Below are positions 6,766 through 58,706 of a stretch of DNA of 64,000 nucleotides, piece by piece. The notes below the pieces were generated by a model, which made no database searches, had not been told where the DNA came from, and saw nothing but the letters and a program-made list of their open reading frames with translations. Both the position numbers and the translations under genes were made by a program. Within the stretch, counting starts at the first letter, position 1, and each line of letters opens with the position of its first letter. Origin of the DNA: Eledone cirrhosa (taxonomy: Eukaryota); NCBI GenBank assembly GCA_964016885.1, contig OZ024744.1:72974001-73038000 (forward strand). The letters are read 5' to 3'.

Positions 6766-6848
6766 AGCCTCGATCTGGATTTAGAATCGCTTTCAACATG
6801 TTTGATGCTGATGGCAATCAAATTGTTGATAAAAGAGAATTCTTGGTT
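6766..6848 (+). CDS. MICU3: MICU3 internal exon encoding EF-hand 1: (K)PRSGFRIAFNMFDADGNQIVDKREFLV
   Basis: Long T-rich tract with AAG| acceptor (phase 1) and GTT|GTAAGT donor (phase 0). Canonical 12-residue EF loop DADGNQIVDKRE. From memory, closely matches vertebrate MICU3 KPHAGFRIAFNMFDTDGNEMVDKKEFLV, and matches it better than MICU2. Confidence 0.92.
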
Positions 6849-16875: not shown

Positions 16876-17086
16876 TTAAAAAGACATAATAATTTTAGAA
16901 ATTCAAGTTGTTGGTGTTGGTGGTGAGGGTAAGAGTGGTGAAAGCATATTTGTTGACCGAACAATTTCACAACTCAACTAATGATCACATAATTGAATCA
17001 AGCAATCTAACCCAACCAACAATTTTACAATTAAATTAACAATCTCACAACTCAACAATTCTACCAACATTCTTACTACTCAACTG

Positions 17087-17345
17087 ACTATCTCACACCT
17101 CAGCCAACTATCTCACATCTCAACCAACTATCTCACACCTCAACCAACTATCTCACACCTCAACCAACTATCTCACACCTCAACCAACTATCTCACACCT
17201 CAACCAACTATCTCACACCTCAACCAACTATCTCACACTTCAACCAACTATCTCACAACTCAACCAACTATCTCACAGCTCAACCAACCATTTAACAACT
17301 CAACCAACTACCTCACAACTCAACTGACTATCTAACAATTCAACC
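17087..17345. repeat. 20-bp minisatellite (CAACCAACTATCTCACACCT)n, ~12 copies with degenerate flanks
   Basis: Direct tandem repeats visible in the sequence. Confidence 0.95.
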
Positions 17346-17964
17346 AACAATCTCGTACTCAACCAAATATCTCACTTCTGAACCAGAAATTTTAAGACTC
17401 ATTTGATAATCTAACAAAACCAAACAAAAACCTCACAATTTAACCATCAATTTCACAACTAACTAAACAATCTCAAAACTAAATGAACAATTAGAACAGA
17501 AACATCAATATTACAATTTAATCAACCCCCATTAACCCCAATAGTGGACCCAACTATTTTAGCAGTTTATTAACATCATATATCATAAATACATGCTATG
17601 AAGGTTCACCTTATATAATACTCTCTCCTCCCTCCAATTCTAAATGTAATCAAGTTAACCTTTAACATGCTGAATTTTTAAACAAATTGCTTCCCTTGAC
17701 ACTTTATCATGTTTAAGGGAAGATTATTACTCCATTGGCGACATAATGCATCTAGAGCACCCAAAAGCTTAATATGAAAAAGTAAATAAGAAAAAAGAAT
17801 CTACATTATATTTCCTTTTGAAAACTGATTATAATTTTTCGTGTGTTTTGGTTGTTGTTCTTGCTGTTGTTGCCTTTATTTCACTGTATTTTACTCACAG
17901 CCCCATTACCTTTTCATTTTGTTGTTTTTTTTTCTCTTTTTTTTTGTATTATTTGTAATTTCAG

Positions 17965-18045
17965 TTGGAATCTTTCTTCGCTTTGCCCCGTTCTGAGCAA
18001 AAGTTTATTCCACGACCAGAAAAGACACTAAAGTTTCTGCTCAGT
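17965..18045 (+). CDS. MICU3: Candidate MICU3 alternative (cassette or mutually exclusive) exon: LESFFALPRSEQKFIPRPEKTLKFLLS
   Basis: Long pyrimidine tract, TTTCAG|TTGGAA acceptor and AGT|GTATGT donor. 81 nt, phase 0-0, no stop, non-repetitive. It has the same boundary sequences and LExxF start as the exon at 58088. Confidence 0.6.
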
Positions 18046-34515: not shown

Positions 34516-35226
34516 CATCATCATCATCGTTTTACGTCCGTTCTTCCACACTAGCATGGGTTAGACGGGTTGTCCTGTTGTGGGTAGTGTCCGGTCAGCT
34601 GACCTTGTCTTGCTCATACGGGAACTGATTCTGGCTTGATTTCTACAGCTGGATGCCCTTCCTAACACCAACCTCATTTACAGTGAGTGCTGGGTGATTT
34701 TTTTCCGTGGCGCCTACACGTTCACTTTACAGTGTGAGCTGGGTGCTTTTTTGCCGTGGGGCCTCCACGACCACTTTTCAGTGGGAGGGTCTGGGGCATA
34801 TTGTCTATATGCTTCAGCTTCGACTTGTACCCATGGGGGGGTCGGGTCTTCTGTATTACTATGTGACGCCAGAGGTCACGGTCGTGTGTCATCACCTTTG
34901 AGAGGTGTAATTGGGTAAGGTCGGCTTTTATCACCTTATCCTAGGTCTTCTTGGGTCTCCCCACTCCGCGGTTTCCATCGACTTCTAGTGCTCTGAACCT
35001 TTTTATGCAGCTGTCATCCTTCATATGCATCACATGTCCATACCAACGCAACCGCCTCTCCTGCACACAGCGTTTGATTCCTCTTATGCTCAGTCTCTCT
35101 CTCAATTCATTTATGCTTTGCTGTTCGCGTATATTACTATTACACATCCATTGGAGCATGCAGGCTTCGTTTCTTTCTAATCTACGCAAGACTTCCACAG
35201 TCAGCACCCAGGTCTCACTACCATGT
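34515..35226 (-). mobile_element. RTE LINE 3' fragment
   Basis: ORF 34941-35207 (RRLERNEACML.WMC...RRLRWYGHVM...GRPKKT) followed by 3' UTR and (GAT)n tail. Confidence 0.9.
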
Positions 35227-35773
35227 AATATTTATATGCAACCAGTCACATGGTTATATGCTGACTCGTCACCGAAGTAAATAACTCGTGTGACTGGTTG
35301 CATATCGGATATTTACTTCTGTGGATTTTATCTGAAGAGAACATGTTGGCAGATGTTATACAAATACCATACATCTTTGAAATATGTATAATAAAATAAA
35401 TAGGTATGGACTAGCGTAACCGTCTTATTTGTTTATTATTATTATATATATATATATCACATTGCCCACAACAGGACAACCCGTCTAACTCATGCTAGTG
35501 TGGAAGAACGGACGTAAAACGGTGATGATGATGATATATATTTAGTTGTCATGTAACATTGAATTCATTATTCATTGCATGCTATATGATTTTGATTTAT
35601 CACCAACTAAAAGGCCTCAAATTTTGTCTTGTGGTCATCAAGCCTCATTGTTTTTTAGTATTGTAGTTGTTTTTAATGAATATGTAATATATCGTCATCA
35701 TCATACGTCCGTTTTCCCTGCTTGCTATATATATATATATAGGCTTTAAGTTGGAATTTGAAGAAATTCACTA

Positions 35774-35973
35774 NNNNNNNNNNNNNNNNNNNNNNNNNNN
35801 NNNNNNNNNNNNNNNNNNNNNNNNNNNNNNNNNNNNNNNNNNNNNNNNNNNNNNNNNNNNNNNNNNNNNNNNNNNNNNNNNNNNNNNNNNNNNNNNNNNN
35901 NNNNNNNNNNNNNNNNNNNNNNNNNNNNNNNNNNNNNNNNNNNNNNNNNNNNNNNNNNNNNNNNNNNNNNNNN
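35774..35973. other. Assembly gap (200 N)
   Basis: Run of N. Confidence 1.
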
Positions 35974-40003: not shown

Positions 40004-41562
40004 TCATCATCATCATCATCAACGTTTAACGTCCGTGTTCCACGCTTGCATGGGTTTGGACGGGGGTAGTCCCACTTGAGGCAAGAGTGATTGTCTTGCT
40101 CGCATAGGACTGTCTGGCAGGTTTTCTACAGTTGGATGCCCTTCCTAACACCAACCACATTTACAGTGTGGGTCTGGGAGGTTTTTACCGTGTTGCCTAC
40201 ACGGCCACATTACAGCGTGGACTGTGTGTTTTTTTGTTGTGACACCTACACGATCTCATTTGTTTCGGCCTGGATGGTGTGGCACCAACATAACTTTACA
40301 TAGGAGGGGTTGGTGTGGATGGGGTGGGGGTGGTGGAACGGGGGTGTATTTTGTTAGAGATGCCTACTGGCTGTAGTAGGTTTTACTTTGTATTTAGGTA
40401 AGGCGGGTCTTCTCTATTACTGAGTACCGCCAAAGGTCTCGGTCCAGTGACATTGTCTTGGAGAGGTGTAAGTGCGTGAGGTCGGAGTTTATCAGCTCGT
40501 CCCAGGATTTTCTAGGTCTGCCTATTCCGTGGCTACCGTCTATCTTTATTGCCCTGCACTTTGTTATACAGCTATCGACTTTCATGCGCATCACGTGTCC
40601 GTACCAATGGAGCCTTCTCTCGAGTAAACAACATCTGATCCCTCTTATTTCTAATTTTTTCCTTAGTTCGTTTATGCTTTGCCGTTCACGTATATTACTA
40701 TTACACATCCAGCGGAGCATGCAAGCTTCGTTCGTCTCTAGTCTGCATATATCCTCTGCACACAATGCCCAGGTCTCACTGCCATGCAACATTGCTGTTC
40801 GTATGCAGGCATCATACAACCTGCCTTTCATTTTTAGGGAGAACCCTTTCGCGGCTAATAGTGGTATAAGCTCTCTGAACTTTTTCCATCCAGTTCTGAC
40901 TCTAGCTACTGTACTTTCAGAGCACCCTCCCCCACTGCTGATTTTGTCACCCAGGTAACGGAAGCTGTCCACTATTTCTATAGAGCCCTCTGCGTAGTTG
41001 TAAGAGCTAGTATTTTGTGGGCACTCGCTGCTACTTATTGCACCAGAACACCGGCCATATGTAAAATCTAAGTTCTTAGTTAGCTTACCTGTGATCCCAC
41101 TACATCTTTTATGCACCCATACTTTGCATTTGGGACATAAAATGGAGTTTCTACCTACGCCTTTCCTACACACTGAGCATGGCCATTTCCCGGAAGGGAC
41201 TGCCGCCTTATTTTCTTTCCTACAAACTAGAACTTTAGTCTTAGCCAGGTTAATTTTAAGGCCTTTTGATTCTAGGCCGTGCTTCCATGTTTGGAATTTC
41301 TTCTCTAGCTCGGCCATTGATTCAGCTATGAGTGTCAGGTCGTCTGCGTATAGGAGTTCCCATGGGCAGCCGGTCTTGAACTCCTCTGTATAGCCTGAAG
41401 GGCAATAATAAATAGTAGGGGGCTGAGAACAGAGCCCTGATAGACGCCAACTTTTACGCTAAACTCTTCACTATATTCGTTGTTAATTCTAACCTTGCTG
41501 ACTGTTTCTTTATACATGGCTTGTATAGCTCTCACAAGCCATTCGTCGACACCTAGTTTTCT
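40004..41562 (-). mobile_element. 5'-truncated RTE LINE (RT C-terminal half, Cys-rich insert, 3' UTR, (GAT)n tail)
   Basis: ORF 41335-41535 (GVYQGSVLSPLLF), a frameshifted LLYADD, and ORF 40394-41317 (KINLAKTK...CSVC...C.KC..WVHKRC...FRYLG...LHGSETW...RLHWYGHV...GRPRKSW). Confidence 0.95.
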
Positions 41563-47860: not shown

Positions 47861-48617
47861 TCATCATCATCATCGTTTTACGTCCATTCTTCCACACTAG
47901 CATGGGTTAGACGGGTTGTCCTGTTGTGGGCAATGTCTGGTTGGCTGACCTTGTCTTGCTCATACGGGAACTGATTCTGGCTTGATTTCTACAGCTGGAT
48001 GTTCTTCCTAACACCAACCTTATTTACAGTGAGTGCTGGGTGCTTTTTTACTGTGGTGCCTACACATCCACTTTACAGTGTGGACTGGGTGCTTTTTGTT
48101 GTGACACCTACATGACCACTTTACTGTGGCGAGTGGGGTATATTGTCTATATGCTTCAGCTTGTACCCGTGGGCAGTCGGGTCTTCTGTATTACTGCATG
48201 ACGCCAGAGATCAAGGTCCTGTGACATTGCCTTTGAGAGGTGCAATTGGGCCAGGTTAGCTTTTATCACCTCATCCCAGGTCTTGTTGGGTCTTCCCACT
48301 CCAAGGCTTCCATTGACTTTTAGTGCTCTACACCTTTTTATGAAGTTGTCATCCTTCATACGCATCACATGTCCATACCAACACAACCTCCTCTTCTGCA
48401 CACAACATTTGATTCCTCTTATGCTTAGTCTCTCTCTCTCAATTCGTTTATACTTTGCTGTTTGTGTCTATTACTATTACACATCCATCGGCTTTGTTTC
48501 TTTCTAATCTACGCAAGTCTTCTACACACAACGCCCGGATCTCACTCCCATGTAATGTTGCTGTTCGTATGCTCGCATCATACAGTCTGCTTTTCATTTT
48601 GAGGGAAAAGCCTTTCA
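47861..48617 (-). mobile_element. RTE LINE 3' fragment
   Basis: ORFs 48448-48729 and 48156-48401 match the 40394 RTE family. (GAT)n tail present. Confidence 0.9.
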
Positions 48618-58087: not shown

Positions 58088-58240
58088 TTGGAACGTATCT
58101 TCAGTTCACAATCTGATAATGAAAAGAAGAAGGCTGCTGCTGAGAAAGAGTTAGAAGCTTCGACTGAAGGCTCTACTGAAGGCTCTGCCGATGGCTCTGC
58201 TGAAAGCAGAGCAGTCAAACCGGTGGCACCACCTGTCTCC
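58088..58240 (+). CDS. MICU3: MICU3 exon following EF-hand 1: LERIFSSQSDNEKKKAAAEKELEASTEGSTEGSADGSAESRAVKPVAPPVS
   Basis: TTTTTCAG|TTGGAA acceptor and TCC|GTATGT donor. 153 nt, phase 0-0, open. Joining gives EFLV|LERIFS, which matches the MICU3 junction EFLV|LQEIF as recalled for vertebrates, followed by the variable linker. Confidence 0.85.
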
Positions 58241-58706
58241 GTATGTTTCTAAAACTCTCCCTCTCTTTCTCCTATTGTGTTGTCACACTCCCATTGTGTT
58301 CTACCCCTCACACCTTTTTCAATATATATTTCTTATCACGGTACCACTCACCACCTTGCTTATGGTTTCTTATGTTTTCAAATTTATTCCTTTTATAGAA
58401 TTTGTTTGGAGTTTTCATTTTGAGTTTTTGCTGTTTTGCTTTGTTTTCTTTTCTTTGTGTGCCTTTTTGTGTGTTTTTTTTTTTATCAGGCAATATTTGT
58501 ACATTTTTTAATATGCACTGTTCTTTAAGAGTATCTATTTGGTGTGTGTTTGTGTGTATATTTACGAGTTAATATATATGGATAGACATATATATATATA
58601 TATATATATATATTAACTACCCTGATGCTCTTAAATATATGTTAATCACTTGTATTTTATATGGAAAAAAAATCAATACACACATACTCACAAATACTTG
58701 TGTGTG

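What the first reader, a model, noticed from the sequence alone, without database searches (positions are those of the whole stretch)
17965..18045. Twin exon in the 51-kb MICU3 intron: a candidate splice switch for the exit helix of EF-hand 1
Seen: the EF-hand exon ends at EFLV (phase 0), and two widely separated exons can continue it. 17965-18045 encodes LESFFALPRS... and 58088-58240 encodes LERIFSSQS.... Both start TTTCAG|TTGGAA, both encode LExxF, both end |GTATGT, and both keep frame. Known: the residues after loop position 12 form the exit helix of an EF-hand, and MICU proteins set the Ca2+ threshold of the uniporter; splice variation tunes this in mammalian MICU1.1. Inference: an ancient exon duplication gives alternative exit helices or linkers (mutually exclusive or cassette use), which could tune mitochondrial Ca2+ gating by tissue, for example neurons versus muscle.
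Basis: partly seen in the sequence, partly recalled or inferred. Interest (0 to 1): 0.75.

Follow-up and report, generated by a model that had tools for sequence, protein, structure and literature searches.

The report
Mollusc-wide splice switch in MICU3
An octopus gene for the mitochondrial calcium-gate sensor MICU3 splices in one of two alternative exons right after its first calcium-binding loop; the exon flagged here is conserved in octopuses, snails and clams and likely tunes how readily mitochondria take up calcium.

Summary
Both exons are real. In run X20, contigs join the EF-hand-1 exon to exon B (58088-58240) and on to the next exon; a second contig covers exon A (17965-18045) exactly, with matching geometry. 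Run X6 shows EF1-A-next letter for letter. Exon A keeps its 27-residue form in 37 of 40 named mollusc species examined, while B is conserved only over six residues. Use is either/or in these contigs but not strictly exclusive: A+B and neither are annotated in Octopus sinensis and other molluscs. Duplication is unproven, since likeness stops after residue 5. All calcium ligands stay in the constant exon. The swap changes the exit helix and following linker: A puts Phe at the position of MICU2 Ile203 (a MICU1 contact) and breaks the helix with two invariant prolines. In human MICU3 this helix bends on calcium binding, for unknown reasons. Ticks show the same four combinations with an unrelated exon. 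A shift in calcium threshold and tissue specificity are inferred, not tested. The isoforms are already in automated annotations; I found no paper on them. It is a new member of a known kind, closest to alpha-actinin 19a/19b.

The parts
6766..6848 (+). Constant exon with the entering helix and the whole 12-residue Ca2+ loop of EF-hand 1; phase-0 donor
   Evidence: Best PDB match is human MICU3 6agi, E 1.7e-10; its last 24 nt are the 5' loose end of the B contig in X20 and, with a few letter differences, of the A contig in X6
17894..17964 (+). Acceptor region of exon A: candidate branch point (CTCAC, 71 nt upstream), U-rich tract and 62-nt AG-free zone
   Evidence: Motif scan; branch point is inferred, not tested
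17965..18045 (+). Exon A: 27-aa alternative exon; short exit helix, proline-bounded basic loop, second helix
   Evidence: Exon-exact contigs in X20 (0 differences) and X6 (2 differences); 26 of 27 residues identical in O. sinensis, O. bimaculoides and Argonauta; AlphaFold2 helices 215-220 and 234-246 in the O. sinensis A-only isoform
58088..58240 (+). Exon B: 51-aa alternative exon; the exit helix of the usual MICU2/3 type plus an acidic, low-confidence linker
   Evidence: Contig EF1-B-next exon in X20, 0 differences; its start aligns to human MICU3 and MICU2; model helix 215-239, pLDDT under 50 at 240-261

Best explanation
Exons A and B are two in-frame alternative exons of the octopod MICU2/3 gene that each complete EF-hand 1, and choosing between them likely tunes the Ca2+ response of the MICU1-MICU3 gate on the mitochondrial uniporter. 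Shown: both are spliced between the EF-hand exon and the next exon, one at a time in the contigs seen; A is conserved across cephalopods, gastropods and bivalves; the Ca2+ ligands do not change. Predicted: B gives a long continuous exit helix and a floppy acidic linker, while A gives a six-residue exit helix, a proline-bounded basic loop and a second helix. Inferred: A replaces Val/Ile by Phe at the position of MICU2 Ile203, which contacts MICU1, and pre-breaks the helix that in human MICU3 bends on Ca2+ binding, so it would shift Ca2+ affinity or coupling to MICU1, most likely towards easier opening. In A+B, A supplies the helix and B becomes linker; the 'neither' form would lose the helix.
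For: X20: EF1-B-next contig, 207 nt = 24+153+30, loose ends shown; A contig 135 nt = 24+81+30, exon-exact, its match running one base into the G that starts the next exon. X6: EF1-A-next with both loose ends shown. O. sinensis RefSeq has A+B (X1, X2), B (X3), A (X4), neither (X5). A is in 33 of 40 named mollusc species and 4 more; positions 1, 4, 5, 7, 8, 13, 14, 16, 17 are invariant in 27 of 27 distinct A segments, while B varies after position 6-8. Position 4 aligns to MICU2 Ile203 (my count on the alignment), listed in interface 2 (PMC7055370 passages). Ca2+-dependent break of the MICU3 exit helix: PMC8353469 section 11. Models.
Against: No functional data. Run kinds are '?' (X20) and a guess (X6), tissues unknown; contigs drop rare paths. 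The loose-end letters of the X20 A contig were among rows not shown. No B contig was laid in 3 of 4 runs (X6, X11, X4) and no A contig in 2 of 4 (X13, X1). Exon A pLDDT is only 63-77 and the two models used different alignments. Both models rank Ca2+-bound MICU3 first by Z (A 32.8 vs 31.2 apo; B 34.7 vs 32.6), so the fold search does not separate them. Fly MICU3-A and -C behaved alike in an eye assay (PMC6506686 passages; which exons differ was not seen). Columns 4, 5, 7, 8 were part of the selecting pattern, though an HMM over 202 other linkers found only 2 further clear matches, both with F-F-x-L-P.
Confidence: 0.65

Rival explanations
1. Exon A matters for its conserved basic loop and second helix, which add a docking site for a partner protein or for cardiolipin membrane; Ca2+ sensing is unchanged.
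For: The strongest conservation outside the helix start is at positions 11-17; all 26 distinct A segments have net charge 0 to +6, against -3 for this genome's B. A+B transcripts keep the motif. The equivalent loop of MICU1 (258-274) can touch the MCU pore mouth (PMC7434445 passage).
Against: A also starts with a conserved exit-helix pattern and an invariant Phe at the MICU1-contact position. MICU2 makes no visible contact with the channel. No partner is identified.
Confidence: 0.22
2. A and B are strictly mutually exclusive tandem duplicates, and annotated A+B and neither forms are noise.
For: Clean two-path geometry in X20 and unbroken A contig in X6; shared first codons (18 of 21 nt across the acceptor).
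Against: A+B is annotated in 22 of 40 species and neither in 6 of 40; A+B occurs in Logan-derived proteins P0040 and P0314; both exons are multiples of 3 and 40 kb apart, so frame and spacing do not enforce exclusion; no likeness past residue 5.
Confidence: 0.1
3. Tolerated, functionless splicing in a flexible linker.
For: The linker is very variable in length across animals; many lineage-specific small inserts occur there.
Against: Fixed 27-aa length and 9 invariant positions across three mollusc classes; A is better conserved than B.
Confidence: 0.03

Closest known systems
Alpha-actinin-1 exons 19a/19b (PMC4435478, passages)
   Same: Two alternative exons in the first EF-hand, used one at a time or both together (the brain form).
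   Different: In actinin the swap removes Ca2+ ligands and abolishes binding. Here all 12 loop positions are in the constant exon; only the exit helix and linker change.
MICU1.1 microexon (PMC8909990, passages)
   Same: Splicing of a MICU subunit that changes the uniporter's Ca2+ response.
   [quoted passage not shown]
   Same: Consecutive exons swapped at one position, old, in an ion-transport regulator. Fly MICU1 is on their D. melanogaster list.
   Different: A-B homology covers only five residues. 'MICU3' and 'CG4662' have 0 occurrences in the one supplementary file searched.
RefSeq MICU3 isoforms of O. sinensis (XP_036367577.1, XP_029648542.1, XP_036367578.1)
   Same: The same two exons and all four combinations are already in automated annotation.
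   Different: No functional or comparative description was found in the paper searches.

Membership tests
MICU2/3 uniporter regulators | Canonical EF-hand 1 with MICU3-type sequence | tested here: met
   Window exon 6768-6848 matches MICU3 6agi best, E 1.7e-10
MICU2/3 uniporter regulators | Full colinear gene and MICU fold | tested here: met
   11 colinear matches on C28 over about 595 kb; O. sinensis orthologue models match 6agi at Z 32.8, rmsd 2.0, 290 aligned and Z 34.7, rmsd 2.9, 308 aligned
MICU2/3 uniporter regulators | Binds Ca2+ and pairs with MICU1 | not tested
   A MICU1-like gene lies on C5; no complex job was sent
Strictly mutually exclusive exons | Never both and never neither | tested here: not met
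   A+B in 22 of 40 and neither in 6 of 40 species' annotations; A+B in Logan-derived oyster proteins. Either/or only in the contigs of X20 and X6
Strictly mutually exclusive exons | Enforcement by steric clash or frameshift | tested here: not met
   40,042-nt spacing; both lengths are multiples of 3. RNA pairing was not tested
Tandem duplicated exon substitution | Exons are consecutive | tested here: met
   242 post-EF1 segments from relatives hit only A and B on the + strand of the window (54 of 55 hits; 1 weak minus-strand hit)
Tandem duplicated exon substitution | Homology over at least seven residues | tested here: inconclusive
   Three of the first five residues identical; beyond residue 5, 1631 of 2000 shuffles score as high; mollusc B segments score p 0.14-0.90 on A columns 6-27
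Tandem duplicated exon substitution | [quoted passage not shown] | tested here: inconclusive
   Distinct in X20 and X6 contigs; annotations list A+B widely; no read counts
Actinin-type EF-hand switch | Alternative exon changes Ca2+ ligand residues | tested here: not met
   Loop position 12 lies before the exon boundary
Actinin-type EF-hand switch | Isoforms differ in Ca2+ affinity and tissue | not testable with these tools
   Needs protein assays and tissue-labelled reads

The most novel reading that the evidence does not exclude
Invertebrates with a single MICU2/3 gene make a gatekeeper form and an enhancer form by splicing the exit helix of EF-hand 1, doing what vertebrates do with the MICU2 and MICU3 paralogues. 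Exon A hard-wires the broken, U-shaped helix that human MICU3 adopts only with Ca2+, and equivalent exons arose separately in molluscs, ticks, insects and ribbon worms.
Probability: 0.2. Interest if true: 0.75.

Novelty: new member of a known kind. Interest (0 to 1): 0.5.

Why it matters
How MICU proteins set the uniporter's Ca2+ threshold in different tissues is an open question, and the role of the Ca2+-dependent bend in the MICU3 exit helix is called elusive in a 2021 review (PMC8353469). A natural pair of exit helices kept across three mollusc classes, with a parallel in ticks, gives a direct test of that helix and of the MICU1 contact. It would also show that splicing can tune an EF-hand without touching its ligands.

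Tried and rejected
Run search: the query held an ATT repeat; 22 of 24 rows were small shares and are not used as evidence. No contig was laid on exon A for X13 and X1 or on exon B for X6, X11 and X4; absence proves nothing. Common origin of mollusc A and the arthropod upstream exons: insect segments gave uncorrected p 0.008-0.12 on columns 6-27, tick p 0.87-0.90, chiton p 0.32, and none reached E below 0.3 in the HMM search, so homology is not claimed. Apo versus Ca2+-bound likeness of the two models: rmsd leaned the expected way (A 2.0 holo, 2.7 apo; B 2.9 holo, 2.0 apo) but on different chains and trims, and Z did not: inconclusive. No TGCATG or GCATG within 300 nt of the three exons. The region search for exon A returned 21 proteins of 24 candidates, all bivalves or one unnamed oyster-like entry; too insensitive to bound its range. 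dN/dS was not computed: no orthologous DNA was available. No complex prediction was sent: one job cannot compare A with B and a pass would follow from solved MICU1-MICU2 structures. Searches used wrong patterns and timed out; they were redone. Xing 2019 and Fan 2020 were not held and are known only through PMC8353469 and PMC7434445. Earlier scan findings: none.

Full report
Observation. They are the only 2 of 1492 YAG sites downstream of the EF-hand exon that open with such a peptide; block shuffles give 2 or more in 2 of 100. The window lies at G000:C28:72974001-73038000. An O. sinensis MICU3 protein finds 11 colinear matches over about 595 kb of this contig, and the next exon starts at C28:73089296.

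Splicing. I laid contigs of 4 runs on each exon. On B, 1 of 4 runs (X20) gave a 207-nt contig with no difference, covering 58088-58241. Its loose ends are the last 24 nt of the EF-hand exon and the start of the next exon. On A, 2 of 4 runs gave exon-exact 135-nt contigs. X6 (another organism, 2 differences) shows the same two neighbours as loose ends. X20 (0 differences) has the same 24 and 29 loose letters by geometry, though their letters were among rows not shown. Both matches run one base past the exon into a G, the first base of the next exon, not the T that starts B. My reading, assuming 31-letter words: both contigs share 30 letters at each end (24 plus the common TTGGAA; 30 of the next exon), which is a simple two-path bubble with no retained A-to-B or skip-both path. 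Contig depths in X20 were 15.1 (A) and 6.5 (B); the tool warns these cannot rank expression, and rare paths are dropped. The run kind of X20 is not on record, but joins across 11 to 71 kb mean spliced RNA.

Conservation. O. sinensis RefSeq lists A+B, B, A and neither. I classified the mollusc proteins among the 120 listed hits plus the cluster members, leaving out 3 unnamed entries, one apparent second Babylonia locus and one protein without a parsable EF-hand 1. Of 40 named species, 33 had A and 34 had B; A+B was seen in 22, A alone in 17, B alone in 23 and neither in 6. These are lower bounds, as only cluster representatives are listed. Cluster members added A for 4 more species, leaving a chiton, Lottia and Potamilus. 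This genome's A matches other octopods at 26 of 27 residues and bivalves and gastropods at 13-16 of 27. Nine positions are invariant in 27 of 27 distinct A segments; B is conserved only at its start. The split of these classes is Cambrian (recalled). A+B is not only a gene-model product: it occurs in Logan-derived oyster proteins P0040 and P0314.

Other animals. Ticks show the same four combinations with a different 27-residue upstream exon. Moth, butterfly, fly, mosquito, ostracod, krill and spider proteins carry other segments at the same boundary, as do a ribbon worm, a chiton, Mytilus, Patella and Biomphalaria. None is significantly like mollusc A. In most of the vertebrate-type and all of the amphioxus proteins seen, the exit helix was constant and the linker behind it varied. 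The site looks like a recurrent splicing hotspot; common descent is not shown.

Structure. AlphaFold2 models of the O. sinensis isoforms (46-sequence alignments) give for A-only a helix at 215-220, a loop and a helix at 234-246, pLDDT 63-77. For B-only they give one helix at 215-239 with falling confidence and pLDDT under 50 at 240-261. Both match human MICU3 best. Counting along the alignment to full-length MICU2, exon position 4 is Ile203, one of four MICU2 residues of interface 2 with MICU1 (PMC7055370, passages). It is Phe in 27 of 27 A segments and Val, Ile or Leu in 29 of 29 B segments (both were part of the selecting patterns). A review states that the EF-hand 1 exit helix of MICU3 is long without Ca2+, breaks into two short helices with it, and that the meaning is elusive (PMC8353469, passages and section 11). 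Exon A's prolines at 8 and 16 would force such a break. The fold search did not show that A is closer to the Ca2+-bound form.

Gene number. Searches with MICU3-, MICU2- and MICU1-type proteins found one MICU2/3 locus (C28) and one MICU1-like locus (C5) (best candidates only). Flies also lack MICU2 (PMC6506686, passages), and vertebrates have three paralogues with different tissue patterns (PMC3567112, passages). This motivates the novel case but does not test it. Against it, two fly MICU3 isoforms acted alike in an eye assay. Fly CG4662 is listed among genes with sex-specific alternative transcripts (PMC1779584, passages; exons not seen).

Known systems. The closest is alpha-actinin-1 19a/19b, including a both-exons form (PMC4435478, passages), but there the ligands change. 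MICU1.1 is a 4-residue insert far from the EF-hands (PMC8909990, passages). Fly MICU1, not MICU3, appears in the supplement of a tandem-exon survey (PMC9741552, passages and one supplementary file). Also seen but not used for claims: PMC11551757 (passages), PMC4895382 (passages), bioRxiv 10.1101/2025.06.25.661581 (abstract and outline). PMC7434445 was seen as passages. Searches listed no paper on alternative MICU3 exit-helix exons (one search listed 20 of 2,692 loose matches, none with MICU3). Subscription papers and unseen supplements of splicing surveys may list the event.

Verdict. A real, conserved, alternatively spliced pair of exons that swaps the exit helix and linker of MICU3 EF-hand 1. 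Splicing and conservation are shown; the structural contrast is predicted; the effect on Ca2+ gating is inferred. New member of a known kind; interest 0.5.

Noticed in passing
P0002 versus P0001, alignment columns 88-96: A further 9-residue cassette near the N-terminus separates O. sinensis isoforms X1 and X2; not looked for in this genome.
   Followed up: no
P0006, P0073, P0090, P0091, P0095, P0096, P0121: A form lacking both exons, which would delete the exit helix, is annotated in 6 mollusc species and a tick; it could be a Ca2+-insensitive variant or noise.
   Followed up: partly
window 58088-58240: Exon B is 9 residues longer than in O. sinensis, with short S-T/A-E/D-G repeats, so it is drifting fast.
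   Followed up: no
window 35774-35973: 200-N assembly gap in the intron between A and B; the intron length is approximate.
   Followed up: no
window 17079-17375: Minisatellite of 14.9 copies of a 20-bp unit about 600 nt upstream of exon A.
   Followed up: no
window 34945-35276, 40572-40800, 48429-48566: Three similar open stretches, probably copies of one interspersed repeat.
   Followed up: no
P0054 and P0088: Babylonia areolata seems to have MICU3-like proteins on two different contigs.
   Followed up: no
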